In this document: piece after piece, positions 1,955 to 55,059 of the stretch
Layout: each line of letters starts with the position of its first letter
Numbering within the stretch: the stretch's first letter is position 1
NCBI GenBank assembly: GCA_973895155.1
Contig: OZ316895.1
Span: 19,022,508-19,086,507, forward strand
DNA: 64,000 nt
From: Marsupella aquatica
Taxonomy: Eukaryota > Plantae > Marchantiophyta
Reading direction: 5' to 3'
Notes under the pieces: generated by a model
The model's database searches: none
What the model saw: only the letters and a program-made list of their open reading frames with translations
Told to the model about the DNA's origin: nothing
Program-made: the position numbers and the translations under genes

Positions 1955-2059
1955 CTGACACAATAAATGTTTTTTGTCGTTATGTCAACGACATTTACAC
2001 TAATGAGCCTAAGATGTCCATTTACGAAGACCATAATCATGTTTATTAAATCATCTTAA

Positions 2060-25100: not shown

Positions 25101-25404
25101 TTACCCTTGGACTTAGATCTGGATTTAGATCTAAACTGGGTTCTACGGTCCCCAGTTGGTCGCTGCATACTCCTCCCACGGTTAACATTGAGGGCAGCAC
25201 CAGATGATGAAGGCTGTGACGTGATGTGCATCTTCTGCTGAAGATCATCACTAAGCAGAGAACTTACCACATCATTGTATGAAATGGTATCCCTATCACG
25301 ATGCAACAACACTCGTGATAGGGACTGGTAAGATGGAGGCAATGAACTAAGAAGCTGCAGAGCCTTTGTCTCATCATTCAAAGTCTCCCCAAGGATTTCC
25401 AAGT
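22127..25404 (-). pseudogene. gag-pol: B2 gag (3' part) and pol, with ~450-bp deletion in the integrase C-terminal region
   Basis: ORFs 24947..25402, 24311..24931 and 22127..24277; the junction TTVYTP|NLVEGE at ~24020 lacks B1 18090-18540. Confidence 0.93.
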
Positions 25405-28400
25405 TGTGATGCCTAGACAGGAATCACTCGGCCGGTTAAGTGGGTAAAGCAGGAAGGCACCCTAGGAACACCTTAGTATAGTGACAAAACAAGGAAAATA
25501 TAAACAATTAGGGGCAACCATGGAACCCGGGCAGAGGCCGGAGGTAAGGCTGAGGGTGAAAACCCGATTAGGGTTAGGGCGCGTTAAGCGTCGGCGGCTA
25601 GGAAGGATCAACGGGAAGAAGGACCGGCAGAGGAGAGGGGTAAGGAGCGCTTGCAGGAGATGGTGGCTCATTTGCGAGCACGAACTAGGCAGACGACTAC
25701 GGGAGGCCAACTACTGTCAGCTGCTTAGGCAAGCACTCGGGGAGAGAGTAGATACCGACGATCAACCTAAGGAGGGTATGAGCAACGTCAATCAAGCGGC
25801 ACATTTTTGGGGATGCCTGTTCGAACGGGCAACTGAGTACATCAAGACTTACGAGGACGAGGAGTCAGAAAGGGCAGCTCGAGAACGGCAGGAGCTCGCT
25901 CGATTGTGGGAGCTGCAGAAGATGGCTTTCTTAGGAGGCGAACTCATCAAGGACGAGTTCCTGTGGACGCCTACTTCCAATCAACTCGACGATCTTCTGT
26001 TTTGCAAAGACAGCGTCGTCGGCATCCGAGAGGCCATCAAGAACTGCAACGACATACACTAGGAATTAAAGGGTAGCACGGAAAGGTGGACCCAGGCAAC
26101 GGTGCTAGGAGAAACCTCCACGGCAGTAGAGATGAAGAGGAAGGGAGCCGTCAACGATGAAGCCACCCCGGCAAAAAGAACGAGGTCGGCGGCACCAAAG
26201 AAGCCAGCCGAGCAGCAGAGCAGGAGGCAGGGAGAAGCCGAAGAGGAGGAGGTCGATCCCATCAAGGCCATTCCAACCAGGGATGACACCTGGAAGGGCT
26301 GGGCGGCAACCCTACCGGTGGAGGTGCAACTACATTTTGCACGGGAGGAGGATGCATGCTTTACGGCCATGCAGACCAAGAAGTACCAAGGCTTCATGGC
26401 CGGATCCGGCTTGGAGGCCTTTGTAAGATTACCATGGCTGAAGCCGGAGGTACCGGAGTCAGACCTATTAGAATTCGTGGGGTCATGGGAACCCGAGACC
26501 AATTGCACGAGGATATATGGGAAGGATTTCTATCTTACTCCCAAGGTGATTGCCGAAGTGTTTGGCCTGCCGATGGGCAATAAGACCAAAGTTGATACCA
26601 GGAAGACCTTGCCTGACAAGGAGTTCCGGTCGTTCCCCGGGCCATCAACGAAGAATGGCTTCTTCCGGAACACCTGCACCAACCCGCACATAGGAGAGAT
26701 GATCGACTTCTTGCGGGTGACCATGCATTGTAACTTGCCGAGGGCAGAGATCGGCAAGGCACAGGTCTATCTGGCAGAAAGGCCAGACCCAAGCCGGGAC
26801 TACAACGGGTACCTCCTCAACCAATTGAAGAAGATCTTAAAGGAGGAGCAGCAGGTAATCGGCATGGGGAGCGTGTCGCGGCTTGGCTATCACATGCCGC
26901 TGTTGTGCCGGTATGCCAGAGGTCAGACTTTTGCCCCGGTACTTCCCCTGCAGGTAAGGGCACCCGAGGAAGCTCCAACGCCGAGGCCGTTGGCTGAGAA
27001 GCCTCAACCACCTGTTAGTCCTACGATCGAGCAGGTGTTTAGGCCCAGGAAGGAAGACTTGCCGATGCAGCAACCAGGCATGCAGAGTCTGCTGAAATTT
27101 GCAGGAATTTCAGGAGCGAATCAAGCAGGAGGAAGAGGCCGCCCTGGCTAAGGAAAAGGATTTACCAGGAGGAGATTGGCCGGAGGACATCAGGCGGCTA
27201 GCCGAAAAAGGAAGCAAACCTCTAGCCACGATTGAAGAGATCCGCAGGACGGCTTGGGAGCAGAGGCCACGATGGGCGATGCCGATCACTTCTACTTACT
27301 CCACCTACGCTAAGAATAGAGCCATGGAGTATGGTGAGATGTGTGGGGAACTTGCGCTCGGCATCTTTGGAGAGGAGTTGGAGGTAGGACCCTTTTTCCA
27401 TAGGGAGCAGTTGGAGAAGCACCAATTAGAAGAAGCGGTGGCTTTAGAGAGAAGCAAGAAGGACGAGGTCATTCGGCGGCTTAGGAGGATGGGAGCCGAG
27501 ATTGAAGATCTAAGGGCGGCCAAGAAAGCCCAAGATGAACTGCGGATTAAACGACATGAGCTGAACATCATGCAGGGGCAGTTGGACGCCGCGCAGGCTG
27601 ATAATCAGAATATCAAGGATAAACTGACTCAGACGCAGGAAGAGTTGGCCGACACAATCAAAGAAAGGGAAAAGTGGAAGCAAGAGCTGAAGAATACAGA
27701 GGAGGCCCACATAACAGCCAACAGCCGGGCCATGGCGGAGACCCAAAGAAAGGAATGGGCGTTGAAAGGGGAGCTCGAGAAAATCCGCGGAGCCCTTGAG
27801 CAGAAGGAAGTCGAGTTAGGGAAATCCTATCAAGGGATTATGGCGCTGCAGCAGGAGCTTGCGTCCCTGACGGCCAGCTTCAAGGCCGACCTAAGGGAGA
27901 AGGACGAGATGCTCGAACAGACTTACGCCAAGATGAACCAGATGGAGTCTGTCATCATTGCAGAGCTCGACAAGGAGCTAAGAGCAACCCAGGAGGAGAA
28001 GGCTACCTTGAAGAAGGAATTGGAGGAAGCCCACAGGGAGCAGGAGGAGGCCAAAAACGAGCTGGAGGGGGCACGTAAGGACCTGGATGAAACCCAAGAG
28101 GAGTTGGAGGAAATCACGAGGAAGATGGAGAACCTACAGCGGCGGGCCGACAACCAAACAGAGCGGCTGAAGAAACAAGCCGCAGTATTTAAATGCTTAG
28201 CTGCAGCAGGTCCATCTCCTGTTGGGACAAACCAGTTACCAGGGGTGGTAATTGCCGAAGGACAAGCCGCCCCACCTGCACCAGTGCCGGAGGTAAGTGG
28301 GAAGGGGAAGGGACCAGCTGCCGAGCCACCAACGAAGAAGAAGCGGAAACCTTCAGGGTCAAGGAGTAATACGACTTCACAGGCCGTGGTGATCAAGGAG

Positions 28401-29603
28401 GTAGACCCAGCACCGACCCCAGACAGGGTCACGGCTAAGGATCCAACTACCCTAGGGGAAGGGGAAGCCGAAGCCGTGGGGTTGGCTGAGGCCGAAGCCG
28501 TGGGGGTGGCTGAAGCCGAAGCCGTGGGAGTTGTCGAGGCTGAAGCCGAAGGTGGACCCAGTCAGGCCGATGGAGAGTTGACTCGGTCAAGGGCAGGTAA
28601 TCTGTCAGTAGGCGGGCCAACGGCAGTGGCTGAGGAGGAAGTGTTGGGGGCGTCCATTGAGGATCCACCACCGGTGTCGTGACGGTGCAAGGGCGCCGTT
28701 CCTTTTAGGGAGGGCGGACGTGGAGGGAGGAGGCGTGAGTGGGCAGGGCGGGCACGGATCTCCACGTTTAGGATTAGGATCAGAACCAGGAGCGGCCCTG
28801 ACACTTAGCTTAGTGGGATTGCGGTCCCACTGGTAGGAGCAACACTTGTGCTCCTGCCTTGCTGTACATAGGTAGATTCGGGCAAGTAGATTACTGTTAA
28901 GTAGATTAGGCTTACGATGCAAAGAATGGCGGATCCACTACCAGGATAAGTACCTGGGCAGCGGGGAGCTCAGGGCCTCTTCTTTAGCAAGTTTTTAGTT
29001 TGCACCAGCCGGGCTGGGATCAAGTAGTACGAGAAGCTCTCGGTTAGTCATACAGTGACCCTTGTGTATATTCATGTTTCCTCATGCCTAAGAGCTGAAT
29101 AGAGTTGGCCTCACGGCTTAGTTCGCAGAACTTGTGTATGAGATGTACTGTTTGTATGGCAAGTGCATGGTATGACTCAGTCAGAATGAGTCATTTTGCT
29201 ATTTGTGTGTCGCATTAACTTGTGTGAAGAGTGCCCACATCAACAGAAGGAAGGAAAGTAAGCAGGGGAGTGAGAGTTGGATGTGTCGAGCTAAGAGAGG
29301 TCTTAGCGGCTTAACCAAGCCTATTGGGGATCATTCCGGCGGCGGAATCCAAACATACCTAACAAGACGGAGGGGAAGACAGGGGAAGACAGGGGAAGGC
29401 CTATATTAGGCCGGCTACGTATCTCATGACCCGATGAAGGATCTGTCCAGTATATGTGTGTAAAATGTTAATAGTAGTAGTAGAAGGTTAGCAGCGTCCC
29501 ATGCCGCTAAGCCGCGGAAACGGCCTCGCCAAGCACGAAACCTGCGGGAATCGGCTTGAGCTGGGGGGTTTCTTGGGTTTAGGGAGCCATGGGACGCACC
29601 ACA
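25405..29603 (+). mobile_element. Element Y1 (4199 bp): TG...CA element without terminal direct repeats, inserted in B2 gag
   Basis: Ends TGTGATGC...GCACCACA; TSD CAAGT (25400-25404, 29604-29608); B2 gag resumes across it. Confidence 0.93.
25520..28682 (+). pseudogene. Y1 large ORF (plant transposon accessory domain-like region, long coiled coil, low-complexity tail); one stop and one frameshifting deletion
   Basis: ORFs 25481..26062, 26102..27151 and 27099..28682 are collinear with the 977-aa Y3 ORF. Confidence 0.8.
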
Positions 29604-30190
29604 CAAGTCAACGACCATGTCGTTGAAAGCATCCACATGGTCTTGAAACTTCGTACCGGATTCCTTCATCCTAAAACTCATCAGCTTGTAGGAATGTAGA
29701 GCCGGTTCGACAACTCCTTGCGGTGATACTTGCTCTGCAATTCCGCAAATAAGGACATGCAATCCTTATGTGCACCCAACTGCTTGATTATAGGAGGCAT
29801 GAGATAGAGTGTAACACATCACACTCCCTGCTCCTGCATGCGGTCCCATTGTTTCTCATCAACATCATCTTCACGAGGGCTCAGCAGTTGGCCCATCCCT
29901 GACGCATAAAGCACTCCCTTCACCTGCTTCTCCCATAGCAAGTAGTCAGAGCGCCCATCATACTTTGTCACTTCATACTTGGGTCCCCCAAGCTTGAAAG
30001 TCCCCATCTTCTTCTTTGGCACTACCTTGAGCTCCGGTAGTAGTACTGCTTTCTCCACCACACGCCGCACCGGTGATGGTATCGGTGTCACGTGCTCTTC
30101 CTCCTGCTCCTCTCTCTGCCCCTGAAACCTCCGCGGTGATCCTCGTGCTTCAAGTTCCACGTCTTCAAAAAACTCCTCCAAATCACTCAT
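29604..30190 (-). pseudogene. gag: B2 gag 5' part
   Basis: MSDLEEFFED...KYEVTKYDGRSDYLLWEKQVKGVL (Copia Gag N-terminal motif). Confidence 0.9.
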
Positions 30191-31694
30191 ATGAGAAAAT
30201 CACAAAAAATGTTTTTTTTCACAACTTCTCAAAAAACTCGAAACTCAACACCGCCGCGTAGCCCACAAAGCTAGGAGTCCAATACTGAAAACCGAAATCA
30301 AAATTGAAATTTGATAGAAAAGTTATTCAAATTTTGGTCGAGGTGGGTAAAACCTTGGGAAACTCCCCCGTTTTGACCACCTCAGGGAATAATCGAAATA
30401 CCAAGTACAACCCGTTGTCGGAATTGCGATGTGATTGGTGCGCCACGTTGCCAACTTCAATGGCTACGACCTCGCCGAAAAATAACCAAAAAATTTACCG
30501 TTCGACGGATGAAATCTTTGTCGGACGGTAAAAAATAGCTCTCTGGTTTTTTGGAATTTTGGAAGAACAATCGAGGGGCTGACACATGTCCTCGAACCCC
30601 CAAAACCCCCTACCACCCTTCGTCGTCGAAATCTGGTCGCGTGCGCAGAAAATACACACGGTAGAATATACCCCTCGACACCAAACGCAAGATATCTCAC
30701 TCGGGTTTTGACGAAATCAAGATCTGATTTCAGATTTGGAAACTAGACTCCGAGGCGGTGAAGATCGATATAAGAAGCACCCAAAACGAGGAAAGAACAA
30801 GGGAGAAAAAAATTGGTAAAGATGACAGATTTCTCTCAATTGCCATAGCCAATTTCGAATCAGTTTTTCAAAGAGAAAAAAATGGTACTTTGTCAACAAG
30901 GAATGTTGATCAATTGCACTTGGTGCCGTCACCAAGTCCAACAAGGTAATTGATTTTGCTTAGCCTTCCTCTTTGCATCAAAGAGCCAATCCCGAACTCA
31001 AAACAATCATCTTGTCTCAATCTCTTCGTTGAGTCAAAACACTTGACGCTTCTCCCTCCGAGTCGATTGCCAACTTTCTTCACAAAATCTAAAATGATGA
31101 AAACTTAGATCTCTCTGCACCACGAGTTCCGTTCAGCGATTTCTTCACACCGTTAGAAAGCTCTTGCCCTGATCTATCCGTTGAGCCCATAAACTCCAAG
31201 TTCCATGCGACGGAACTCTGGGAAATCCACCGACACTCAACGCTGGAAAAACCGTCATGAAATCCCGTCACGAACACACGTCACCTCCCAAGCATGCTCT
31301 GATACCAATTGTTGAGCATAGACGACGATCGTAACGGCAAGCCCATGAACCATCCAACGCACAATAGTCGACACAAGAGATACGTGGTTCACCTCCTTGA
31401 GGCTACGTCCACGGGAACACACAAGAGAACTTTATTGAACTCTAAGCCCGTCGGCTATACCGAGTCTCCACAGTGTAAACTCTCCCTATCTCTCAAGTGG
31501 CTCCATAACAATGAGCCTTGGTTCTACCTCTCCAAACACACATGCCTCTTATGATATAGTGTGCAACTTAGTTGTACCTAACCACATAGTTGTACCTAAT
31601 CATGTAGTTGTACCTAACCACGTTGTTGTACCAACCCACGTTGTTGTACCAACCACGTCATACCTAACCTAGACATAAGAGTAAATACCCAACA

Positions 31695-33667
31695 GTACCG
31701 GTATGTTATGGAATCCATCACCGGGGAGTATGTTTGATCAAAGTCTCGGCCGAGGATTTGGGTGTAGCCCTTTGCTACCAAATGAGCTTTGTACCTGATT
31801 ACCTCTCCTTTTGCATTTTGTTTCCTCACAAAAGTGAACTTATAGCCCGTAAGGTGGGTCCCTGCAGGTGCAAGGATTACAGCTCCAAAAACTTTTTGTT
31901 TTATAAGGCCCAGGGGTTGGCCCCGTTTTGCCTTTGGTGTAGTTTCAGTTGCCTGTGCAGCTGTTTGGGAGATTCTTGCGGGTATGTTCGCTGCCGCCGT
32001 GTGTGAACGTGTGACCGTAGCTACATCGTTGAAAGAGTCTGGTAATTTCATGAGCATCTGTTGTAAATGGAGAACCCTTTGCACTCCTTGGTCTGCTTCT
32101 CTGGTCCGGTGGTCATCAGTAAATGGTTTTGTGGGTAGCCATTGTAGGTCTAGTGCTTTGATATGTCCGCTTCTAGCTGGGTCTTCGGTGAGTGTTGGGA
32201 ATTCATCTTCAAAAAATTGACAGTCTTGGAACCTTGCTTTAAAGACGTCTGCTATCGTGGGTTCCAAGTACCTGATGATAGAACGTGAGTCTAGTCCCAC
32301 GTAGATACCTCGTTGTTGCTGAGGTCCCATTTTAGTCCGTTTGGGACCTAGTATTGGGACTAGGACCAGGCATCCGAATGTGCGGAGATGGGTAATGTCT
32401 GGTGGCAGTCTGTATGCCAAGAAGTGGGGGGTTGGGTATTGAAGGAGGATGGCCTTATTCTTAGAAGGGCGGCTGCATGGCCCCAGGCTGAGGCTGGTAA
32501 GTTGGATTGCATTAGTAGGGGTCTGGCCACCATTTGTATGCGTTTTATCACTGATTTGGCAATACCATTCTGAAAATGGACGTGTGGGACCGGGTATTCG
32601 GTGTCTATCCTTGCAGTCTCACAGAAGTCATCAAATGTTTTTGAGGTAAACTCCCCCGCATTATCAACTCTTATGGTTTTGATTGGGTTCTCTAGGAATT
32701 GGTGTTTAAGTTTCAGTATGTGAGATAAGATTCTGGGGAAGACTAAGTTTCGTGTGGAGAGCAAGGAGACCTGTGACCATTTGGTGGAGGCGTCTATAAT
32801 GACCATGAAGTATCGGAATGGGCCGGAGGGTGGGTCAATTGGTCCGCAGAAATTTGCTTGTATCCTCTCTAAAAATTGTGGGATCTGTTGTATGGTTTTT
32901 GATGGTGCAGGCCAAGTCATTATCTTTCCCTGTGAACAAGCAATGCAGAGTCTGCCTGAGGCTAAGGGGTGGACTCCGTGAGGTATGCCCACCGTGGTCT
33001 TCAAAATATTGTGGTACATATTGGTGCCGGGGTGGCCCAGGCGATTATGCCAAATTTGAGTTAAGGTGAGGGTGGGTCGCTCTGTATGGTAAGAGTGTAT
33101 CCACGTGATGTATAAACCAAGAGGATAAATTGGTAAAATCTCTCAAACTCCTCCCCCTGGTTTAGTGTTGTCTAGTATCTGCAGGACTTCCCGGTTGTTG
33201 TAGATGTCTGTATGGATGTGTAGCTTATTTGCACAGATGTTGTTGAAGCTGATTAGGTTCCTTGGGGCCTGGGTGCATAAATTGTCGAGTCGATATAGAT
33301 TGTAGTCCCGTTTGGGAATTTGACTCTGGCCGGGCCATAGCCCTCCTCTATATGGTTAGGTCCTGTTATGGTTGTCATGGATCTGTTGGATGGAGTGATT
33401 CAAAGAAAGTAGTGTCTGTCTCGTAATATTGAGTGAGATGTTCCGTTGTCCACAATGCAATTGCTGTGGTCATTTGGTAGTGATGAGGTAGAGCCTAATT
33501 GGGCGGTGTGGACCTCGGGTACGGCTGGGTCTATTCTATAGCCCTCACTGTCATCTAGGGCCTCCATGTAGTTGCCCTGTGCTCCGTTGGTGGGCTGTTC
33601 CCGGCTTTGCTTATAAAGTGTGACCAGGTGTGCAGGTGTCCGACAGTCTCTTTGTAAGTGTCCCTTG
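31695..33667 (-). pseudogene. pol: Element A: end of zinc knuckle, protease, integrase, RT N-terminus
   Basis: KGHLQRDC, CIVDNGTSHSIL, CIACSQGK, IRVDNAGEFTS, RYKAHLVAKGYTQ, TYSPVMD. Confidence 0.92.
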
Positions 33668-34104
33668 TGTCGCGCCCCTAACCCGGGCCTTAAATCCAGT
33701 TTAGTTCCATGGGGCAACCTCGACCACCAGTAGGGGTGAGGGTTCGGGCAAGGAGGTGTGTAGTGGCCTCAATTAGCCCTAAGTCGGGCTAAGTCAATCT
33801 ACTTACCGGTATAATACTTACGCAACTCATATTGGTCATAGGTATATTTGTTTTCCACCGTTGGAATATTCCCATAGTTAGTGACTCGGACTAACTCCCG
33901 GCTTGGGGCTTTCAAGCCATCAACGCGACAGAACCTTGTAGTATGCAATGGGTGGCAATCCCTACCATTAGTCCACACCCAGTACGTCCCTTGAAATGGC
34001 GCCTTTGCCCATACAAAACACACACAACACCAGCTACACGCGATAGAATCAGAGGGAAAAGACTACATTTACTCAGCAAAGAATCACTTTACATAGTTGA
34101 CTTG

Positions 34105-37100
34105 TGTGATGCCTAACCAGGAATCACTAGGCCGGTTAAGTGGGAAAATGGAAGTATACCCTAGAAACACCTTAGTATAGTTACAAGAATGAGGAAAATA
34201 TAAACAATTAAGGGTGACTATGGAACCCGGGCCGAGGCCGGAAGTAAGGACACCGGGGGAGAGAATACGATTAGGGTTAGGGCGCACTAAGTGTCGGCGG
34301 CTAGGGGTAACCAATGGTAGGAAAGACCAGAGGAGGAGAGGGATAAGGACAGCTCACGAGGAATGGTGGCTCATTTGCAAGCACGAACTGGGCAGACGAC
34401 TACGGGAGGCCAACTACTGTCAGCTGCTTAGACAAACACTCTGGGCGGGAGCAGATACCAACAAATGACTCAACGAGGGTATGAGCAACGTCAATCAAGT
34501 GGCACATTTTTGGGGATGCCTGTTCGAACGGGCAACTGAGTACATTGGGACTTACGAGGATGAAGAATCGGAGAGAGCAGCTCAAGAACAACAAGAGCTA
34601 GCTCGATTGTGGGAGCTGCAGAAATCTGCCTTCTTAGGAGGAGAATTCATCAAGGCCAAGTTCTTGTGGACTCCTAATGCCAATCAGCTTGACGACCTTC
34701 TGTTTTGCGAAAACAGGATCGTCGGCATTCGGGAAGCCATCAACCGCTGCAACGACATACAGTGGGAGTTGAAGGGTAGCATGGAGGGGTGGACAAAGGC
34801 AACCGTGCTAGGAGAAACATCCACGGCAACCGAGATGAAGAGGAAAGGAAACAACAACGAAGAGGCCACCCCGGCAAAAAGAACAAGGTCGGCGGCACCA
34901 AGGAAGCCACCAGAGCAGGGAAGTAGGAGGCAGGCGGAACCCAAAGAGGAGGAGGTCGATCCCATCAATGCCATTCCAACAAAGGATGACACCTGGAAAG
35001 GCTGGGCGGCGACCCTACCAGAAGAGGTGCAACTGCATTTTGCACGGGAGGAGGATGCATGCTTTACAGCCATGCAGACCAAGAAGTATCAGGGCTTCAT
35101 GGCCGGATCCGGCTTGGAAGCCTTCGTAAAATTACCATGGCTGAAGCCGGAGGTGCCGGATTCAAACTTATTAGAATTCGTGGGATCATGGGAGCCCGAG
35201 ACCAATTCCACAAGGGTGTATGGGAAGGATTTCTATCTCACTCCCCGGGTGATTGCCGAAGTGTTTGGCTTGCCGATGGGCAATAAGACCAAGGTAGAGA
35301 CCAGGAAGACCTTGCTAGACAAGGAGTTTCGGTCGTTTCCAAGGCCATCAACAAAGAATGGCTTCTTCCGGAACACCTGCACCAACCCGCACATCGGAGA
35401 TGATGGATTTCTTGCGGGTGACCATGCATTGCAACTTGCCGAGGGCAGAGATCGGCAAGGCACAAGTCTACCTAGCAAAGAGGCCAGACCCAAGCCGGGA
35501 CTACAACGGGTACCTCCTCAACCAACTGAAGAAGATCTTGAAGGAGGAACAGCTGGTGATCGGCATGGGAAGTGTGTCCCGGCTCGGTTATCACATGCTG
35601 CTGTTGTGCCGGTATGCCCAAAGCCAGATATTTGCCTCGGTACTGCCCCTGCAGGGAAGGGCACCAGAGGAAGTTCCGGAACCAAGGCCGGCAACAGAGA
35701 AATTGACCAAGCCCGACAGTCCTACAATCGAGCAGGTGTTTAGGCCGAGGAAGGAGGACTTGCCGATGCAGCAACCAGGCATGCAGAATCTGCTAAAATT
35801 GCTAGAGAAGGAAAGAAGAATGGCAACGGCAACGGGGCCAGCACAGAATACTGCTTCCAAAGTCGGCCTTAGCCAACTTACCAGGGAAAACCCCTTTACC
35901 GGGGCCAAGGAGAGAAGGAGGTCGGAACACAAGCTGGGAGTCCGAATGTATGTAGGAGCTTCAAGTCCCAAAGCCCAGGAGAAGCAGCCCGAGGCCCTTG
36001 GTCACAACAGGGAGAAAATGATATCAACGTGGAAGTCGAAGGATCAAGAACCCGTGATCTGTGGGGTTGTGTTCACGGTAGGGGCAGGAGAACAGAGGGG
36101 GAAGTCGGGAGTCCAAGTAGTGGAGGAGGCGGTGGAGGACTACAGCAATGATAACTCCGGCTATGGGTCGAATCATCATTTTCCAGGAATAAGGACCTGT
36201 GGCAGGTTCATCCCCACTCTTCCAAGAGTAATTCGAGGGGACCCCACCCAACAGAGCAACCTCGAGTCCCCCCCACCAGATGTCGCTCCCCCGAGTTTTG
36301 ATGGCATAAGACAGACGGCACAGGAGTTTCAAGAGCAACTCAGAGAGGAAGAGAAGGCAGCCCTGGATAGGGAGAAAGATTTACCAAGAGGAGATTGGCC
36401 GAAGGACATCAGGTGGCTTGCCAAAAAAAGAAGCAACCCTCTTGCCACCATAGAAGAAATCCGCAAAGCGGCTTGGGAACAGAGGCCGAGGTGGTTGATG
36501 CCGATGACTTCTTCTTACTCCACCTATGCTAAAGATAGAGCCATGGAGTACGGGGAGATGTGTGGGGAACTTGTGCTCAGCATCTTTGGGGAGGAGTTGG
36601 AGGAAAGCACGCTGAAGATGGAGAACTTACAACGGCGGGCCGACAACCAAACGGAGCGGCTGAAGAAACAGGCCACAGTATTTAAGTGCTTGGCTTCCTC
36701 GGGACCAACTCCAATTGGGGCAACCAAGTTACCTGGTGTAGTACTGGCCGAAGGAGAAGCCGAGACACTCGCACCGGTGCCGGAGGTAAGTGGCAAGGAG
36801 AAGGGGCCAGCTGCCAAACCAAAGAAGAAGAAGAAGCGGAAACCTTCTGGGTCAGGGAGTACTACGGCTCCTCAAGCCGTCGTGACCAAGGAGGTAAACC
36901 CAACACCAACCTCCGGCATGGTCACGACAATGGATCCACCTGTCAAGGAAGGTGGGGATGGCAAGGCCGAGGCCAGGACAACTATTGATGAAGCCGTGGA
37001 AGCAAACCCACCACTAGAGCCAGCTGAGGAAACCATAGTCGGGGAGGCCGTGGCCGATACTGATGCTGAAGCCAAAGGTGGACCCAATCAGGCCGATGAA

Positions 37101-38128
37101 GAGTTGACTCGGTCCGGGGAAGGTAATCTGTCAGACGAAGGACCGACGGCAGTGGCTGCGGGGGAAGCGTTGGGGGCATCCATTGAGGATCCACCACCGG
37201 TGTCATGACGGTGCAAGGGCGCCGTTCCTTTTAGGAAGGGCGGACGTGGAGGTAGGAGGCGTGAGTGGGCAGGGCGGGCTCGGATCTCCAAGTTTAGGCT
37301 GAGGATCAGGACCAGGAGATGGCCCTAACACTTAGATTAGTGGGATTGCGGACCCACTGGTAGGAGCAACACTTGTACTCTTGCCTCGCTTTACATAGGT
37401 AGATTGCAGTTAGGTAGATTACAAATAGGATAGATTAAGCTTACGCTGCTAAGAATTGGCGGATCCACTACCAGGATAAGTACCTGGGCAGCGGGGAGTC
37501 CAGGGCCTCTTCTTTAGCAAGTTTTTAGTTGCGCCAGCAGGGCTGGGATCAAGTAGTAAGAGAAGCTCTCGGTTAGTTATACAGTGACCCTTGTGTATAT
37601 TCATGTTTCCTCATGCCTAAGAGCTGAATATAGTTGGCCTCACGGCTTAGTTCGCAGAACTTGTGTATGAGATGTACTGTTTGTATGGCAAGTGCATGGT
37701 ATAACTCAGTCAGAAGGAGTCATTTTGCTATTTGTGTGTCGCATTAACTTGTGTGAAGAGTGCCCACATCAACTAATAGATGAAGGGAAGTAAGCAAAGG
37801 AGTGAGAGTTGGATGTGTCGAGCTGAGAGAGGTCTTAGCGGCTTAACCAAGCCAATTGGGGATCATTCCGGCGGCAGAATCCAAATATACCTAAACAAAA
37901 GGAGGGGAATACAAGGGAAGGCCTAGATTAGGCCGGCTACGTATCTCATGACCCGATGAAAAATCTGTCCAGTATATGTGTGTAAAATGTTAATAGTAGT
38001 AGTAGAAGGAAGTTAGCAGCGTCCCATGCCGCTAAGCCGCAGAAATGGCCTCGCCGAGGACAAAACCTACGGGAATCGGCCTGCGTAGGGGGGTTTCTTG
38101 GGTTTGGGGAGCCATGGGACGCACCACA
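34105..38128 (+). mobile_element. Element Y2 (4024 bp), inserted in X
   Basis: Same ends as Y1; TSD ACTTG (34100-34104, 38129-38133). Confidence 0.93.
34220..37208 (+). pseudogene. Y2 large ORF, frameshifted, coiled coil deleted
   Basis: ORFs 34214..34468, 34481..35743 and 35358..37208. Confidence 0.8.
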
Positions 38129-38699
38129 ACTTGACTTCTAAGGGGGTCAACAGGCCCAACGACAGTCGATGCCCAGTTTCTACGAGGCCCCACCCCGCGC
38201 TTGCCCAGCAAGCTCGACTCTGGCTCTCACTCCTTAGTGCACTCTGACCCTGCTCAAGCCGGGACTTCCCGTGCCTCACCTTTTCTTGCGTTGAGATAAC
38301 TAAGCCTTCCCCCCCTCCCACAGCGGAAGGGGAAGCCTAAATACTACGGTTGTGAAAAGGAATAGGAAGATACTACCTTCCGGGGTAATGCCTATTGACT
38401 AACTACCTTCTGACTAACCGGCCGCACTCCTCTGACCGGTTGACCGTCGGCGGCAAGGGCGCTGACCGGGGCGACAGCACCTAAGTCTACTGACCAAAAT
38501 CTAGTTTGTTGATGGACTCTATCCTATGTTGGCTGATCCTAACTGATCCTGTCCTAATTCCTCCTACTGTGCCGCTAATCGGCGCCTAATGATAGCCCTT
38601 CTGTCGTTAAGCCTAATAAAAAAGATGCTGTTGACTCAACTGCCCCGCGCGGCGCCTGCTTAGACCCTCTGGTAACCACCCCTTATGCGCGTGCTATGG

Positions 38700-40646
38700 T
38701 TGGGCCACGGTTTGTCCCTTGTCAGGGTGAGACCTCGAGCCACCTTGATCAGAGGTGGGCCCAGGTCTTGCCCGCTGGAGGACGAGTAGAGTAACGTGGT
38801 CTTGCAAGGCCTTGTTATCTCGTACCGCCTCCTCTACCTCGTTTGCCGCCTCATCGGCCTTTGCTTGGAGCCGTGCTACCTCCAGGTTGAGCTGGTTAAT
38901 GGAGTCACGATGGGCTCGGTTGAAAGTATGCCGAGACTTGTTGTCCGATGTACGTCGCCAGCTCCCCTAACAGAGTCTGACTAAACTTTTGGACCAAGTC
39001 GTAGGCCATGGTCCCCAGGGCTACTTGGTAGTCCTCCATCCTCTCGGGTACTAGCGGTTCCTCGGGCGGGGCGGCGAGCTCCTCCGTAGTCTGCAATGGG
39101 GAGGGGAAGGTTTCTTCACGTGGTGGAGGGATTGGAGGTGGTTGTACCGGGGGTAGCGGAGGCTCGACGGAAGGGGCCGGAGGAATTTCAACTTGGGGAG
39201 GTGATGGAGTATTAGTCGGGCCTCCGGTTCGGGGTTTGCCCGAGGCGCAGTAGTCCGCTCGCTCGGGGTAGTCTCCTCCATAGCGGGGGTGACATTAATC
39301 GGGGCTGAGGTGGCCATATTCTTTCCCCTGGCCTCCCGCCATGCCTTGTACCAAGCGAGGATGATGGCGATATGACTTCCCAGGTAAGTCTTCCCCCCGA
39401 TAGCCATATCTCCCTGAGCCCGCTTAAGCTCCCCCGAGAACCTTCGGTAAAAGAATTGGGCCCTGTTCCACCGTTTGTACTGTTCCACCTGTACGATCGT
39501 ACAGAGGGAGATCTCGGATCATGGCTCAATCATGTGTAGGGTAGTCCGTATGAAGTTAAGCCGTTCCATACAGATTAAGTTGGTGCACGACCCCTGCTTG
39601 TCTCCGTTGTCTGTCTTACCCTCAGGTTTGAAGTGTCGAGGTGTATACTCCTTATCCCAAATTTGGAGTTCAACCGACATTGGCCCGGTTGGCAGGCAGA
39701 AGATCTGGGCTAGCCGATGCTCCGTGAGTGATAAGGTCTGTCCTGAAACCTTGGTGGTCAATGCGTCAGTGTCAAAATTGGAGATAAACTCACAAATCTC
39801 CTTTGGTCCGGCAACGCACTGTGTCCATAGCAAGTGAGCGAACTGCTCCAACTTATGCTCCTTGAGATAGTCCGCATGCTCGAGTTTCTTGATCGCGATC
39901 CAGACTACCTCGGGGACACGGATTACCTGTAATAAGTTAGACTTTGGATTATCCGCGGGCCGTCGGGTCTGGTTGGTCAGGGGGTTTTTCGGGGCAGGTG
40001 CAGGGGTGGCGTTGGTTTGCGTTATTGGTTTGGGGGCCGACGTCGTCCTTGATCGCCTCCGAGAATGCTGCTCAAGCTACGGACTAACATGCTCAGAACC
40101 CGAGGAACACTCGGTGTTGTTCATGGGACAAACTTGGGACCGGTTTGGTGGCACGTCGGTGGTCATCGGCTGAGGGGCTGGGGGTGGTGTCAGGGTAGCC
40201 ATATCCCAGTTGAAGGCGTTGGAGCTTTCCCCGAGGAACGTAAGGTTACGCGCCGCTTCCCATTGTCTGCTGATGTCTTCTTCACGCTTCTCGGCTGCAA
40301 TCTGCTGGTCGATGTATCCCGAAATCTTGTCGAACTCCATTGGAGTCAGTCGCTAGCTGCCCCTCAGCCTAAAGAACTTTGCGGGAACTTCAAGAATTGC
40401 CTCTGCCATCGATCTGAACCCTTCCTCGCTGATATATAGCTCGGTGATGTAATCCCGTAGCTCATTGTAATTAGAATCCTTGGTGATGGCCGTCTTCTCA
40501 CAGTTAACCTGTGCTACTTTGGCCACCAGCTTTGCGTATCTTCGTTCGTAAGTGGCTTTATCGGGGCAAGAGTACCAGTAAGTCTTGAAGAACTTAGCAC
40601 CAACCTCGCCAAACAAGGTCCAAAATCCCAAGGCTGGAAGGGTCAT
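38700..40646 (-). pseudogene. X ORF, fragmented, distantly homologous to the Y ORF
   Basis: EQFAHLLWTQCVAGPKEICEFISNFD...SLTEHRLAQIFCLPTG aligns by eye to Y LEAFVRLPWLKPEVPESDLLEFVGSWE...YLTPKVIAEVFGLPMG; KTYLGSHIAIIL aligns to VSRLGYHMPLL. Confidence 0.7.
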
Positions 40647-41187
40647 ACTAACCTTTGTAGTCTGGTTTGTCGAGTCCGCATTCCCGCCCGGCCGGTCCGC
40701 TTGCTGGTGGAGGCCTTACTCGCCCAAATCTCGCCACAATCCGCTCTTATCCCTCGATAATCTCATAAAGGTCAACTTGATTAGCAAAAGGTGAGAGTGA
40801 ATGGCAGCGTCTGCAAATTCCAAAAGGTAGGAATGAGCAAATGGCCCACAACGCCATCGACTCCGGTCTTATGGAGGTGCTAGGGTAAGCTCGAGCGTGA
40901 GACGGCAAGGCCGTTTTGGTCATTGATAATGAGCTGAAGTCGGCGTCTCGGTCCAAGTGTGATCTCCCAATGGATTTTTACTCCGCCGCCGCCACCGTAC
41001 CTCGGTCGAGCGTAATAATCCTCTTCCTTAATTTGTAATCATTTGGTCAACTAACCTACTCCTAATCTATTTATAATGGCAAAGACGGTTATTCATGCTA
41101 TTCTACGCTACGGCTACGGTCCTAATGACTGTATAAATCCTAATCTATGACCTGTGTTTGGTTAAGTGACACGTTTCTCGTGTCACA

Positions 41188-41244
41188 CTTTGGTTCCGCA
41201 CCTGAAGCATTTGGTGGGCTTGTTATTCTCTCGGTTCCAATTGT
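41188..41244 (-). pseudogene. gag: Element A Gag segment between X and Y3
   Basis: Translates NWNRENNKPTKCFRCGTK (first half of the CCHC knuckle). Confidence 0.88.
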
Positions 41245-44200
41245 TGTGGTGCATCCCATGGCTCCCTGAACCCAAGAAACCCCCCTGCACAAGCCGATTC
41301 CCGCAGGTTTCGCGGCTTAGCGGCATGGGACGCTGCTAACTTTGACTAACATTTTACACACATATACTAGACAGATCCTTCATCGGGTCATGAGATGTGA
41401 AGCCGGCCTCTTCTATGCCTTCCATTGTCCTCCTCTCCTGGTCTCCCTTTAGGTATGTTTGGATTCCGCCGCCGGAATGATCCCCAACTGGCTTGGGTAA
41501 GCCGCTAAGACCTCTCTCAGCTTGACACATCCAACTCTTACTACCTTGCTTACTCCCTTCTTGGTTGATGTGGGCAATCTTCAAACAAGTTAATGCGACA
41601 CACAAATAGCAAAATGACTCCTTCTGACTGAGTTATACCATGCACTTGCCATACAAACAGTACTTCTCATACACAAGATCTGCGAACTAAGCCGTGAGGC
41701 CAACTCTATTCATCTCTTAGGTATGAGGAAACATGAATATACACACGGGTCACAGCATAACTAACCGAGAGCTTCTTTAACTACTTGATCCCAGCCCTGC
41801 TGGTGCACTAAAAACTTGCTAAGGAAGAAGGCCCTGAACCCCCCCGCTGCCCAGGTACTTATCCTGGGAGTGGATCCGCCCAATTCCTTGCAGCATAAGC
41901 CTAATCTAACCTGACCGTAATCTACCTATGTACAGCGAGGTAGGAGCACAAGTGTTACTCTTACCAGTGGATCCGCAATCCCACTAAGCTAAGTGTCAGG
42001 GCCGCCTCCTGGTCCTGATCCTAATTCTAAACTTGGAGATCTGAGCCCGCCCTGCCCACTCACGCCTCCTCCCTCGAAGTCCGCCCTCCTTAAAAGGAGC
42101 AGCCCTCCACCACCGTCATGGTAGTGGTGGCTGATCCTCAATGGACGCCCCCAACACTTCCTCTATAGCCACTGCCGTAGGTCCATCCTCTGACAAATTA
42201 CCTGCTCCGGACCGAGTCAACTCTCCATTGGCTTGACTGGGTCCAACCTCAGCTTTGGCCTCAGCATCGGCCATGGCCTTCGATATGGTTACGACTTCCC
42301 CGACCTGTTCTAGTGGTGGATTCGGTACACCGGCTTCATCACTAAGCATTCCGGCTTTGCCCTTGCCATCTCCGCCTTGTAGGACAGTTGGATCCTCTAT
42401 CGTGACCCTGCCTGAGGTTGGTGTCGGGTTTACCTCCTTGGTCACGATGGCTTGAGAAGCCATGTTACTCCCCATCCCAAAAGGTTTTCGCTTTTTCTTC
42501 TTCCTTATTTTGGCAGCTGGCCCCTTCCCCTTGCCACTTATCTTCGGCACCGGTGCGAGTGTCTCGGCTTGTCCTTCGGCCAGTACTACTCCTGGAAACT
42601 TGGTTGCCCCTATTGGAGGTGGACTTGAGGAAGCCAAGCACTTAAATACTGCGGCCTATTTTTTCAGCCGCTCCGTTTGGTTGTCGGCTCGCCGTTGTAA
42701 GTTCTCCATCTTCCTCGTGCTTTCCTTCAACTCCTCCTGCAATTCGTCCAGGTCCTTGCGCGCCTCCTCCTGCTCCTTCTGGGCTAGCTTCCTCCAACTC
42801 TCTCTGGGCTTCCTCAAGGTTCTTTTTTAAGGTAGCCCTCTCTTCTTGGGTTGCTCTTAGCTCCTTGTCGAGCTCCGTTACGACCTCAAACTCCATTTTA
42901 TTCATCTTGGCATAAGTCTGGTCGAGCTGGTCGTCTTTCTCACGGTGGTCGGCCTTGAAGCTGGCCGTCATGGATGCGAGCTCCTGTCGTAGCACAATGA
43001 TCGCCTGATAGGATTTTCCTAACTCGGCCTCCTTTTGCTCAAGGGCTCCGCGGATATCCTCGAGCTCCCCCTGCAACGCCCTCTCCCTTCTCTGGGTCTC
43101 CGCCATGGCCCGGTTGTTGGCTGCTATGTGGGCCTCCTCTGCATCTCTCAGCTCTCGCTTCCACTTCTCCTTCTCCTTGATCGCATTGGCCAACTCTCCT
43201 TGGGTCCGAGTCAGTTTATCCTTGATAATCTGATTATCAGACTGCGTGGTATCCAATTGCCCTTGCATGATGTTTAGCTCATGCCGCTTAATCCGCAGCT
43301 CATCTTGGGCTTTCTTGGCCGCCTTCAGGTCTTCTACCTTGGCTTCCCTTGCCCTAAGCCAATGGATGACCTCGTCCTTCTTGCTTCTCTCCAAAGCCAC
43401 CGCTTCTTCTAATCGGCGCTTCTCCAACATCTCCCTCTGGAAAAAGGGTCCCTGCTCCAACTCCTCTCCAAAGATGCTGAGCGCAAGTTCCCCACACATC
43501 TCCCCGTACTCCATGGCTCTTTCTTTAGCATAGGCGGAGTGAGTAGAAGTCATCGGCATCACCCATTGCGGCCTTTGTTCCCAAGCCGCCTTGCGGATTT
43601 CTTCTATCGTGGCTGGAGGGCTGCTTCGTTTTTCTGCAAGCCACCTGATGTGCTCTAGCCATTCTCCCCCTGGTAAATCTTTCTCCCTAGCCAGGGCTGC
43701 CTTCTCTTCCTCCCTGAGTCGCTCCTGAAACTCTTGTGCCATCTGTTTTATGCCGTCAAAGCTCGGGGGAGTGATATCTGGTGGGGGAGACTCGGGGCTG
43801 CTCTGCTGGGTGGAGTCCCCTCGAACTACTCTTGGAAGAGTGGGGATGAACCTGCCACAGGTCCTTACTCCTGGAACATGATGGTCCAACCCGTAGCCGG
43901 AGTCATCATGTTCGTAGCCTTCTACCACCTCCTCTACGGCTTGGACTACCTGCTCCCCCCGTTGCTCTCTTGGTTTTGCCGTGAACACGGCCTCACAGAT
44001 CACGGGTCCTGGTCCCTCTGGCTTCCACGTTGATCTCTTCTTCTCTCTGTCGCGACCAGGCTCTTCAGGCTGCTTTTCCTCGGCTTCGGGACTTGAGGCT
44101 CCTACATACATTCGGACTCCTGGCTCGTGCTCCGGCCTCCTTCTCTCCTTGATCCTGGTAAAGGGGTTTTCCCTGCTAAGTTGGCTTAGACCAACTTTGG

Positions 44201-45951
44201 GAGCAGTATTCTGTACCGGTCCCGTTGCCGTTGTCGTTCTCCTTTCCTTCTCCAGCAATTTCAGCAGATTCTGCATGCCTAGTTGCTGCATCGGCAAGTG
44301 CTCCTTCCTTGACCTAAACACCTGCTCAATTGTAGGGCTGTCGGGCTGGGTTGGTTTCTCTGTTGCCGGCCTCGGTTCCGGAACCTCCTCTGGTGCTCTT
44401 GCCTGCAGGGGAAGTACCGGGGCAAATATCTGACTTTGGGCATATTGGCACAACAGCGGCATATGATAGCCAATTCGGGACACGCTTCCCTTGCCGATTA
44501 CCTGCTGTTCCTCCTTCAAGATTTTCTTCAATTGGGTGAGGAGGTATCCGTTGTAGTCCCGGCTGGGTTCTGGCCTCTCCGCCAGGTAAACTTGTGCCTT
44601 GCCGATCTTTGGCCTCGGCAAGTTGCAGTGCATGGTTACCCACAAGAAATCGATTATCTCTCCTATGTGCGGGTTGGTGCAGGTGGTCCGAAAGAAGCCA
44701 TTCTTCGTTGATGGCCCAGGGAACGATTGGAACTCCTTGTCTGGCAAGGTCTTCCGGGTATCTACTTTGGTCTTATTGCCCGTCGGCAAGCCAAACACTT
44801 CGGCAATCACTCGGGGAGTGAGATAGAATTCTTTCCCATACACCCTTGTGGAATTGGTCTCGGGCTCCCAAGATCCCACGAATTCTAATAAGTCTGAATC
44901 CGGCACCTCCGGCTTCAGCCATGGTAACTTTACAAAGGCTTCCAAGCCAGATCCGGCCATGAAGCCCTGGTACTTCCGAGTTTGCATAGCTGTAAAGCAT
45001 GCATCCTCTTTGCGTGCAAAGTGTAATTGCTTTTCCTCGGGGAGGGTCGCCGCCCAACCTTTCCAGGTGTCATCCCTTGTTGGAACGACATTGATGGGGT
45101 CGACCTCCTCTTCTTCGGCTTCTTCCTGCCTCCTGCTCCCTTGCTTGGCTGGCTTCCTTGGTGCCGCCGACCTCGTTCTCTTCGCAGGGGTGGTCTCTTC
45201 ATTGATGTTCCCTTTCCTCTTCATAGCGGCTGCCGTGGATGTTTCTCCTAGCACGGTTGCCTTCGTCCACCCCTCTGTGCTACCCTTCAACTCCCAATGT
45301 ATGTCGTTGTAGCGGTTCATGGCCTCCCGGATGCCGACTATTCTGTTCTCACAAAACAGATCGTCGAGTTCGTCGACAGTAGGCGTCCACAAGAATTCAA
45401 CCGTAATGAGTTCTCCTCCTAAGAAGGCAGACTTCTGTAGCTCCCACAGTCGAGCGAGCTCCTGCCGTTCTCGAACGGCTCTCTTCGATTCTTCGTCCTC
45501 GTAGGTCCCAATGTACTTAGTTGCCCGTTCTAACAGGCATCCCCAAAAATGAGCAGCTTGATTGACATTGCTCATACCCTTCTTGCGTTGATTGTCGGTA
45601 TGTGCTTCCAGCCCGAGTGCTTGCCTGAGCAGCGAACAGTAGTTGGCCTCCCGTAGTCGTCTGCTTAGTTCGTGCTTGCAAATGAGCCGCCATTCCTTGC
45701 GTTCGATCCTTACCCCTCCCTGACTGGTCTTCCTTCCCGTTAGTTACCTATAGCCGCTGGCACTTAGCGCGCCCTAACCCTAATTGTGTTCCCTCCCCTG
45801 GCATTTTTACTTCCGGCCTCGGCTCGGGTTTCATAGCCACCCTTAATTGTTTATATTTTCCATATTTTTGCTACTACACTAATGTGTTTCTAGGGTTTAC
45901 TCCTTATTTTATCATTTAAACTGGCCTAGTGATTCCTGGCTAGGCATCACA
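41245..45951 (-). mobile_element. Element Y3 (4707 bp, most complete copy), inserted in A gag
   Basis: Ends TGTGGTGC...GCATCACA; TSD ATTGT (41240-41244, 45952-45956). Confidence 0.93.
42116..45575 (-). CDS. Y3 large ORF (977 aa open; frameshift near 42790 separates the C-terminal ~200 aa); possible upstream start at 45834
   Basis: ORFs 42642..45575 and 42116..42637; no RT, integrase, protease or Gag motifs seen. Confidence 0.8.
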
Positions 45952-54990: not shown

Positions 54991-55059
54991 CCCCATGAGT
55001 CAAGTCCCAAGCACCCAGCCACGTGGGCATCAGCAATGAGACCCCTCAAACGTGCCACC

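What the first reader, a model, noticed from the sequence alone, without database searches (positions are those of the whole stretch)
25405..45951. Y family: 4.7-kb TG...CA elements with 5-bp TSDs, no LTR pair, no gag/pol, but one ~1150-1240-codon ORF
Seen: three independent insertions (25405-29603, 34105-38128, 41245-45951) with matching ends (8-bp imperfect inverted repeat TGTGRTGC), each with its own perfect TSD. I found no terminal direct repeats, PBS or PPT. About 75-80% of the element is a single ORF (accessory-domain-like region, long coiled coil, basic NLS-like stretch), followed by ~0.9 kb non-coding. Known: TG...CA with a 5-bp TSD is the retroviral-type integrase signature; ORFs inside LTRs are rare (MMTV sag). 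Inference: either giant solo-LTRs of a Ty3/Gypsy whose U3 encodes a large protein, so each solo-LTR leaves a complete gene cassette, or an LTR-less element class mobilised by an integrase in trans.
Basis: partly seen in the sequence, partly recalled or inferred. Interest (0 to 1): 0.82.

Follow-up and report, generated by a model that had tools for sequence, protein, structure and literature searches.

The report
Giant gene-carrying LTR-like plant repeats
Three copies of a 4.0-4.7-kb plant jumping-gene family, and one copy of a second family nested with them, have retrotransposon-type ends but no replication genes and instead carry one large conserved gene whose predicted shape resembles a known transposon anti-silencing protein; they are likely the lone, unusually long end-repeats of a retrotransposon, which would mean such an end-repeat can carry a whole gene.

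Summary
Y1-Y3 are real, independent TG...CA insertions with exact 5-bp TSDs; empty sites exist for Y1 and Y3. They have no LTR pair, PBS, PPT, gag, pol or DDE fold. Only Y3 is 4.7 kb and no copy has an unbroken ORF, but the shared reading frame (about 1,153 codons) is under purifying selection (dN/dS 0.23-0.30; core 0.11-0.13). A fourth insertion, Z (3.5 kb, unrelated DNA), has the same layout and a homologous protein. The protein family is unnamed: 49 distant relatives, named ones only from the liverwort Calypogeia fissa, no Pfam match. Its core domain folds confidently and matches only VANC21, the anti-silencing factor of VANDAL transposons (Z 8.1, next 2.1). Best reading (0.6): solo LTRs of Ty3/Gypsy-type elements whose giant LTR holds an accessory gene with its own promoter. 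The deciding test, paired copies around an internal domain, could not be run (no genome); junction contigs from public runs are mostly unrelated flanks, with a hint of a shared minority. An LTR-less element class stays open (about 0.25).

The parts
25405..29603 (+). Y1, 4199 bp, TG...CA, TSD CAAGT (25400-25404 / 29604-29608), inserted in the gag of a copia element
   Evidence: empty site in sister copia at 19921-19925
34105..38128 (+). Y2, 4024 bp, TG...CA, TSD ACTTG, inserted in the 3' non-coding tail of element Z
41245..45951 (-). Y3, 4707 bp, longest copy, TSD ATTGT, inserted in the gag of the outer copia element
   Evidence: empty-site joint in runs X1, X3, X4
33668..41187 (-). Element Z (3491 bp once nested Y2 is discounted): second family, TG...CA, TSD CAAAG/CAAGG, one decayed ORF homologous to the Y ORF, no DNA similarity to Y
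   Evidence: (host gag zinc knuckle continues across it)
45844..45861 (-). Conserved TATA-box block at +89-108 of Y3 (Y1 25493-25510, Y2 34193-34210); predicted promoter of the ORF
   Evidence: motif only, start site untested
42116..45575 (-). Y3 gene, about 1,153 codons from first Met to final stop, broken by one frame change near 42783
45291..45575 (-). N-terminal helical domain (about 95 aa), shared with Z and four database relatives
   Evidence: dN/dS 0.17-0.19
44409..45071 (-). Core domain, 221 aa, VANC21-like predicted fold (Y1 26285-26947; Y2 34988-35648; Z 39336-39953)
   Evidence: dN/dS 0.11-0.13
42789..43448 (-). Long predicted coiled coil (about 220 aa); deleted in Y2
   Evidence: dN/dS 0.24
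42485..42505 (-). Basic stretch RKKKKRK, NLS-like
   Evidence: function inferred
41245..42115 (-). 3' non-coding tail of Y3, 871 bp, far more conserved than synonymous sites (0.08-0.12 against dS 0.35-0.54; one block 0.02-0.06)
25699..25731 (+). Leader arm that can pair with the tail arm across the whole ORF (Y2 near 34405, Y3 near 45641-45651)
29085..29118 (+). Tail arm complementary to the leader arm (Y2 near 37632, Y3 near 41696-41705)
29494..29600 (+). 3'-terminal stem-loop closing just before the final CA (outer stem kept in all three copies; significant only in Y1)
   Evidence: z -4.9 (Y1), -1.9 (Y2), -1.4 (Y3)
41068..41075 (-). TATA box of Z at +113
   Evidence: motif only
38694..40646 (-). 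Decayed Z gene (about 650 codons; several stops and frame changes): N-terminal domain, core domain, short coiled coil

Best explanation
Y and Z are TG...CA insertions with 5-bp target duplications that carry one conserved gene and no replication genes, and they are likely solo LTRs left by recombination between the two very long LTRs of Ty3/Gypsy-type retrotransposons, with the gene predicted to encode a VANC/PMD-fold DNA-binding protein that would help its own family escape silencing. Shown: ends, TSDs, empty sites, selection on the gene, conserved non-coding tail, a second family of the same layout. Inferred: (1) a parent LTR-PBS-internal-PPT-LTR is copied by RT and integrase (its own or borrowed; the internal part may be short and non-coding); (2) an accessory gene of the kind that Athila, Ogre and Retand elements carry internally came to lie inside the LTR, most simply by a shift of the PPT upstream of a sense 3' accessory gene and its promoter, which puts it in U3; a position downstream of the LTR start site is nearly as likely; (3) long LTRs recombine fast, so most genomic copies are solos, each a promoter-gene-tail cassette; (4) the protein (helical N-domain, VANC-like core, coiled coil, basic stretch) is nuclear, oligomerises, and binds non-coding DNA of its own family.
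For: TG...CA with 5-bp TSD in 4 of 4 insertions. Z ends in a 10-mer that matches the Retrosat2/RIRE8 LTR end at 9 of 10 bases and has GGG at -8 to -10 as in Del U5 att type A. No long TIRs and no RNase H-type fold anywhere in a 929-aa model. Non-coding tail constrained and a 3'-terminal stem, as expected of R/U5 signals (own knowledge). Protein points to retrotransposon accessory genes: VIA-align finds only VANC21 at Z 8.1, rmsd 4.4, 200 of 221 aligned among 48,161 chains, next Z 2.1; VANC is structurally related to MAIN/PMD (PMC13547354) and PMD-A clades are Gypsy-encoded (PMC5418596); Atlas lead to Transposase_32 and ATHILA ORF1. LTRs of about 5 kb exist in plants (PMC6317226); solos outnumber complete copies 2.6:1 for the 3.2-kb-LTR Retrosat2, solo ratios rise with LTR length and solos can form soon after insertion (PMC7497039). 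Short-LTR copia elements in the same nest kept both LTRs. A cross-run coincidence in the junction contigs is compatible with about 10% sharing one continuation.
Against: No paired copy or internal domain was seen: 4 of 4 insertions are single units although all lie inside a copia whose LTRs differ at 2 of 171 bases (nested copia 12 of 385 and 3 of 421), so every one must have lost its internal part quickly. Loose ends at the Y 3' end in four runs (39, 16, 20, 15 contigs) agree only 0.36-0.44, close to unrelated flanks (0.34-0.39 simulated), and show no recognisable PBS. Y's own last 10 bases match the Retrosat2 end at only 5 of 10 and lack the Del GGG. No Gypsy pol remnant was found in 56 further ORFs of the window. 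The VANC match is middling: Foldseek E 1.6, TM 0.41, Z 8.1 is near the level that common arrangements reach, and no Pfam or PDB sequence match supports it. A shared fold shows no function, and Y has no tandem-repeat array like VANC targets, only three copies of one 7-mer.
Confidence: 0.6

Rival explanations
1. Y and Z are the complete mobile units: LTR-less elements with att-like TG...CA ends that are cut and pasted (or copied) by an integrase-type enzyme supplied in trans, carrying only an anti-silencing-like gene.
For: 4 of 4 insertions are single units in a young nest; junction contigs at the 3' end are mostly unrelated flanks with no PBS; one run shows a Y end joined directly to the interior of another Y (table 5c); two families share the layout; integrase-type DNA transposons with TG...CA ends exist (PMC2836005, PMC6839031).
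Against: Ginger and GingerRoot have 40-270-bp TIRs and mostly 4- or 6-bp TSDs; Y has an 8-bp imperfect one and a 5-bp TSD. The two ends are asymmetric, with a promoter block at one and a conserved structured tail at the other. An RNA copy of a single unit could not rebuild the sequence upstream of its start site (own knowledge). High solo ratios explain 4 of 4 without a new class (0.72^4 = 0.27 at the Retrosat2 ratio). Contigs collapse many identical internal junctions into few records, so cannot show absence.
Confidence: 0.22
2. Y is a non-autonomous deletion derivative of an element with short LTRs, in which the LTR pair has diverged or been trimmed and only the accessory gene was kept.
For: Accessory ORFs normally lie in the internal region (PMC7264820, PMC6317226); the copies do carry large internal deletions.
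Against: No direct repeat between the two ends is shared by the copies, though LTRs are identical at insertion and the insertions are young; no internal PBS of the iMet type; the same end-to-end layout recurs in three lineages 14-17% apart and in Z.
Confidence: 0.08
3. Solo-LTR origin is right but the protein has another job (particle assembly, RNA chaperone or chromatin tethering of the integration complex) and the VANC likeness is only a shared fold.
For: Fold match is middling; MAIN/MAIL PMD proteins silence rather than activate; functions of Athila, TRP28 and ORF0 proteins are unknown; no tandem target array.
Against: The only solved structure matched is a sequence-specific DNA-bound anti-silencing factor; basic NLS-like stretch and coiled coil parallel VANC's predicted coiled-coil oligomerisation.
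Confidence: 0.1

Closest known systems
Solo LTRs of long-LTR Ty3/Gypsy elements (rice Retrosat2/RIRE3/RIRE8, Tekay/Del; PMC3485330, passages read)
   Same: TG...CA, TSD kept, multi-kb length, solos outnumber complete copies; Z's 3' end matches the Retrosat2/RIRE8 end at 9 of 10 bases; these elements also carry an extra ORF.
   Different: Their extra ORF0 is described upstream of gag-pol, not as filling the LTR; here about three quarters of the unit is one gene under purifying selection, and no parent was seen.
Extra ORFs of plant Ty3/Gypsy elements: Ogre PMD, Retand TRP28, Athila ORF1 (PMC6317226, PMC11963269 passages; PMC7264820 first third)
   Same: Large accessory gene with a PMD-like globular domain and coiled coil; Atlas lead to Transposase_32 and ATHILA ORF1 clusters.
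   Different: All are described in the internal region; no Pfam match for any of 53 family members; an additional N-terminal helical domain; relatives named only from a liverwort.
VANC21 anti-silencing protein of VANDAL (Mutator-like) transposons (PDB 9lnk/9lnj; PMC10398659 abstract; PMC13547354 passages)
   Same: Predicted fold of the core domain (Z 8.1, 200-208 of 221 residues aligned), predicted coiled coil, transposon-borne accessory gene.
   Different: 9-10% identity; VANC is described as dicot-specific and MuDR-encoded; Y has integrase-type ends and no transposase; binding and activity untested; no tandem target array.
Ginger1/Ginger2/TDD and GingerRoot DNA transposons (PMC2836005, PMC6839031; passages)
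   Same: TG...CA ends (TGTNR pattern fits TGTGA), no LTRs, 2.6-7 kb.
   Different: Y lacks long TIRs and any integrase-like transposase; TSD is 5 bp (shared only with TDD-4/5).
LARD and TRIM non-autonomous LTR elements (PMC7215508, passages)
   Same: No gag/pol; would need enzymes in trans; a LARD-like parent with two giant LTRs is possible.
   Different: Defined as non-coding and with two LTRs; Y is a single coding unit.

Membership tests
Solo LTR of a Ty3/Gypsy retrotransposon | TG...CA termini | tested here: met
   (Y1-Y3, Z)
Solo LTR of a Ty3/Gypsy retrotransposon | 4-6-bp TSD directly flanking one unit | tested here: met
   three exact 5-mers, one with a mismatch (Z); empty sites for Y1 and Y3
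Solo LTR of a Ty3/Gypsy retrotransposon | No PBS, PPT or internal sequence adjacent | tested here: met
   flanks are host copia or Z sequence
Solo LTR of a Ty3/Gypsy retrotransposon | The same sequence occurs elsewhere as a direct-repeat pair around PBS-internal domain-PPT | tested here: inconclusive
   no genome; junction contigs mostly unrelated, weak shared minority; no loci in collections
Solo LTR of a Ty3/Gypsy retrotransposon | U3-R-U5 layout with start site and poly(A) site | tested here: inconclusive
   conserved TATA at +95 (Y) and +113 (Z), no AATAAA in the tail, terminal stem; no RNA data
Solo LTR of a Ty3/Gypsy retrotransposon | Parent pol places it in Ty3/Gypsy rather than Ty1/Copia | not testable with these tools
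   no parent sequence; assignment rests on end motifs and the accessory protein
Ginger / GingerRoot DNA transposon | TIRs of 40-270 bp | tested here: not met
   only an 8-bp imperfect inverted end (definition)
Ginger / GingerRoot DNA transposon | Integrase-like DDE transposase | tested here: not met
   no Pfam hit; predicted 929-aa model is helical N-domain, core, disorder and coiled coil; the last 170 codons were not modelled but are low-complexity
Ginger / GingerRoot DNA transposon | TSD of 4 or 6 bp (5 bp in TDD-4/5) | tested here: inconclusive
   5 bp here; fits only TDD
LARD / TRIM | Two LTRs with PBS and PPT | tested here: not met
   not in these copies; a parent of this form is untested
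LARD / TRIM | No protein-coding capacity | tested here: not met
   dN/dS 0.23-0.30 over 716-954 codons
VANC / PMD protein family | VANC/MAIN-type fold | tested here: met
   Z 8.1, rmsd 4.4, 200 of 221 aligned, next row 2.1; middling, Foldseek not significant
VANC / PMD protein family | Sequence profile match (PF10536, PF04195, PF20167, PF03078) | tested here: not met
   none among the families shown for 53 members at E up to 10 (first 25 of 82 listed) or 52 hits at E 0.01; Atlas lead only, 0.83-0.84
VANC / PMD protein family | Sequence-specific binding to own element and loss of silent marks | not testable with these tools
   needs experiment
Tcn1-like self-priming chromovirus | PBS complementary to the 5' LTR transcript start | tested here: inconclusive
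   no complement of the shared loose-end 7-mer inside Y; parent not seen

The most novel reading that the evidence does not exclude
Y and Z are the whole mobile unit: a new class of LTR-less, integrase-ended elements in liverworts that carry nothing but a VANC-like anti-silencing gene and are moved by an enzyme from elsewhere.
Probability: 0.22. Interest if true: 0.88.

Novelty: new variant of a known kind. Interest (0 to 1): 0.7.

Why it matters
If the solo-LTR reading holds, these LTRs are mostly protein-coding: every recombination that normally disarms a retrotransposon would leave a complete promoter-gene cassette behind, in very many copies, able in principle to act on the family in trans. 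The protein gives a testable handle on a long-open question, what the accessory ORFs of plant LTR elements do: its only structural match is a sequence-specific anti-silencing factor so far described from dicot DNA transposons, which would push that fold, and perhaps that strategy, to retrotransposon-type elements of a bryophyte lineage. Standard LTR finders would miss or mis-annotate such units (the named relatives are annotated as 'unnamed protein product' genes). If no parent exists, it is a new element class.

Tried and rejected
No whole genome is held, so the genome-wide pair search could not be done. Word-based protein search with the 1033-aa frame found nothing; with alignment A3 it found none of 1379-3935 aa (weak evidence against fusion to a polyprotein) and 2 of 7996 candidates at ordinary length. 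Three of the 52 HMMER hits (P0002, P0039, P0041: repeated short stretches, unrelated Pfam domains) were dropped as spurious before aligning. DNA context for relatives was not obtained: end pattern absent from metagenome and viral contigs; P0058 or A4 gave no confirmed locus in metagenome, viral or genome contigs. No RNA holder listed: no evidence on expression. Rfam: 0 matches in 25300-46100. PDB sequence search and BFVD fold search: nothing significant; whole-model Foldseek gave only coiled-coil noise and VANC21 at E 5.4; the N-terminal domain was not folded alone, so its fold is untested. I considered reading the cross-run coincidence in loose ends (a 7-mer at offsets 9-15 in X1 and X2) as an iMet-type PBS (motif recalled): 4 of 3000 independent-flank simulations reach it, but the runs are of two organism labels that may share insertion loci, a similar coincidence appears in another row pair, and a PBS starting with TGG is not seen; not claimed. 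The leader-tail duplex does not hold for Z (328 of 500 shuffles reach it) and is weak in Y3 (27 of 500). My note that the ORF cannot be in U3 was too strong: a second promoter in the conserved tail is not excluded. Depth sums were not used as copy numbers.
Full report
Observation. They are true insertions: the sister copy of Y1's host copia shows the site once, and contigs joining Y3's two flanks exist in runs X1 (3 contigs), X3 (4) and X4 (1), not X2. No direct repeat between the two ends is shared by the copies and the flanks hold no PBS or PPT. Lengths are 4199, 4024 and 4707 bp; Y1 and Y2 lack 518 and 730 bp inside the gene, and each copy has at least one frame change or stop. Pairwise identity is 83-86%.

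Setting. The window is a plant repeat nest. All Y copies lie inside an outer copia (13372-47526) whose LTRs differ at 2 of 171 bases; two nested copia elements differ at 3 of 421 and 12 of 385. The insertions are therefore young relative to the 14-17% that separates them, so they came from separate source lineages (inference; LTR dating on short LTRs is rough). The family is very abundant and diverse in four public runs of two studies: 7,639-23,633 contigs laid on Y3 per run at 80% likeness (not a copy number).

A second family. Between Y2's left flank and Y3 lies element Z (33668-41187, minus strand, 3491 bp without the nested Y2), again TG...CA, with a 5-bp duplication carrying one mismatch; the host gag zinc knuckle continues across it. 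Z has no DNA similarity to Y but the same layout: TATA box near +110, ATG at +542, one decayed gene, about 1 kb of tail. Its protein is homologous to Y's in the core (21-23% identity, E 2e-14 pairwise; 172 bits against a profile built from database relatives alone) and in the N-terminal domain (Z 43.6 bits, Y 12.5-17.4, best of 1000 shuffles 7.1).

The gene is real. From the Met at element position 377 to the stop at 3836 (about 1,153 codons, 73% of Y3), dN/dS is 0.26, 0.23 and 0.30 in the three pairs (716, 954, 903 codons; 95% intervals 0.19-0.38), and 0.11-0.13 in the core; shifted and antisense frames give 0.89-1.38, and the 56 open codons before the Met give 1.6-2.3. The 871-bp tail diverges only 0.08-0.12 against dS 0.35-0.54, so it is constrained as nucleic acid. 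A TATA block at +89-108 is invariant. A leader segment can pair with a tail segment across the whole gene (1 and 0 of 500 shuffles reach it in Y1 and Y2, 27 of 500 in Y3, not in Z), and a stem closes just before the final CA (z -4.9, -1.9, -1.4). Expression is untested.

The protein. No Pfam family matches. HMMER over 1.84 billion representatives returned 52 hits, 49 kept. Of 20 clusters looked up, 7 have members named as Calypogeia fissa proteins, one has 'hypothetical protein' members from metagenomes, the rest are unnamed; the host is thus likely a liverwort (inference). Long relatives repeat the layout of N-domain, core, linker and coiled coil. The core folds at pLDDT 91.6. Against 48,161 PDB representatives only VANC21 bound to DNA passes Z 5 (Z 8.1, rmsd 4.4, 200 aligned, 10% identity; next 2.1; repeated on the sister entry); Foldseek ranks that entry second with TM 0.41 but E 1.6. 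The Atlas, queried with a relative, gives unnamed clusters first and Transposase_32 and ATHILA ORF1 clusters at 0.84 and 0.83, a lead only. A 929-aa model shows a helical N-domain, the core, disorder and a long coiled coil, with no RNase H-type fold. VANC and MAIN (PMD) are structurally related and VANC is predicted to oligomerise by a coiled coil (PMC13547354, passages); PMD-A clades are Gypsy-encoded (PMC5418596, passages); VANCs bind non-coding tandem repeats of their own element and remove silent marks (PMC10398659, abstract). So it likely works like a transposon-borne chromatin regulator; membership of the VANC or PMD family by sequence is not met.

Solo LTR or whole element? No genome is held. 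I laid public contigs on Y1's 3' end: loose ends behind the last base number 39, 16, 20 and 15 contigs, with further rows one or two bases on (60 rows not shown), and agree 0.36-0.44. Simulation gives 0.34-0.39 for unrelated flanks, 0.36-0.40 if a tenth share one continuation and 0.41-0.44 for a fifth. Most junctions are thus solo-type ends; a small shared class is suggested by a cross-run coincidence but may reflect shared loci, and contigs collapse identical internal junctions, so the test is inconclusive. Indirect evidence favours LTR identity: integrase-type ends without long TIRs, Z's end matching Retrosat2/RIRE8 at 9 of 10 bases (PMC3485330, passages) and the Del U5 att GGG (PMC4029996, passages), asymmetric promoter and tail, a protein of the retrotransposon-accessory kind, known LTRs of about 5 kb (PMC6317226, passages), and high, fast solo formation for long LTRs (PMC7497039, passages). 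Against: 4 of 4 copies in a young nest lack an internal part, Y's own end fits the Del motif poorly, and no parent was seen. Ginger and GingerRoot fail on TIRs and transposase (PMC2836005, PMC6839031, passages); LARD and TRIM fail on coding capacity (PMC7215508, passages).

Mechanism committed to (0.6): a Ty3/Gypsy-type parent with two giant LTRs; an accessory gene with its own promoter was taken into the LTR, most simply by an upstream shift of the PPT; LTR-LTR recombination leaves solos that keep the cassette; the protein binds its own family's non-coding DNA and opposes silencing. Only the anatomy, the selection and the predicted fold are shown.

Novelty. Reviews place extra ORFs in the internal region (PMC7264820, first of three parts read; PMC6317226 and PMC11963269, passages). 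Six full-text searches for ORFs inside plant LTRs, or for such elements in liverworts, listed no description (listings only, apart from the papers named). PMC2864245, PMC12885004 and PMC11728184 were read in passages and added nothing on this point. Not held or not seen: the VANC21 structure paper, Sasaki 2022, Steinbauerova 2011, Kalendar 2004, and all supplements; the element tables of PMC6317226 could bear on LTR lengths in non-seed plants. MMTV sag and HIV nef as LTR-overlapping genes are recalled, not checked. Three earlier unchecked notes of this scan describe smaller gene-bearing solo-LTR-like units, two tied to mosses; they suggest a wider bryophyte pattern but are not evidence. Verdict: new variant of a known kind, interest 0.70; LTR-less class possible at about 0.22.

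Noticed in passing
window 33668-41187 (minus): Element Z: second TG...CA family with a homologous gene; hosts Y2. Treated as part of the finding.
   Followed up: yes
window 45575-45580 (Y3), 25773-25783 (Y1), 40646-40652 (Z): A GT splice-donor-like motif overlaps or directly precedes the start codon in both Y and Z; could allow the gene to be spliced out of a longer RNA. Motif recalled, untested.
   Followed up: no
window 25405-25428, 45928-45951, 41167-41187: Both families begin with a short hairpin that repeats the terminal motif in inverted form about 20 bases in.
   Followed up: partly
Y leader, element +258-330 (window 25662-25734): Nearly invariant block upstream of the ATG with a conserved upstream ATG (22-codon uORF in Y1 and Y2); it contains the arm that pairs with the tail.
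   Followed up: partly
Y tail: One 7-mer (CGGCTTA) occurs three times in each copy against 0.09 expected, and CTAA/TTAG is enriched in the non-coding parts of both Y and Z; candidate binding motif, not corrected for multiple testing.
   Followed up: partly
run X1, joint 43807 to 41245 (table 5c): A Y 3' end joined to the interior of another Y gene: Y inserted into Y elsewhere in that genome.
   Followed up: no
window 13372-47526 (minus): Outer copia with 171-bp LTRs that do not end in the usual CA and a non-TGG primer site; hosts the whole nest. Resembles Bianca-type elements (recalled).
   Followed up: no
window 15584-21427 and 21516-31694 (minus): Two adjacent copies of one copia family with 421-bp LTRs and an iMet-type PBS, each with its own 5-bp TSD; the second has a deletion in the integrase region and hosts Y1.
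   Followed up: partly
window 1-6509: Divergent decayed ORFs without Pfam match except a DNA-methylase-like stretch at 5901-6506 (PF01555, E 7e-7); possibly a DNA transposon carrying a methyltransferase-like gene.
   Followed up: no
window 48600-56514 (minus): Decayed L1-type LINE (DUF4283, zinc knuckle, RT, zf-RVT), with a second 3' fragment near 48842-49402.
   Followed up: no
window 9712-10166: Tandem duplication of 228 bp at 97% identity.
   Followed up: no
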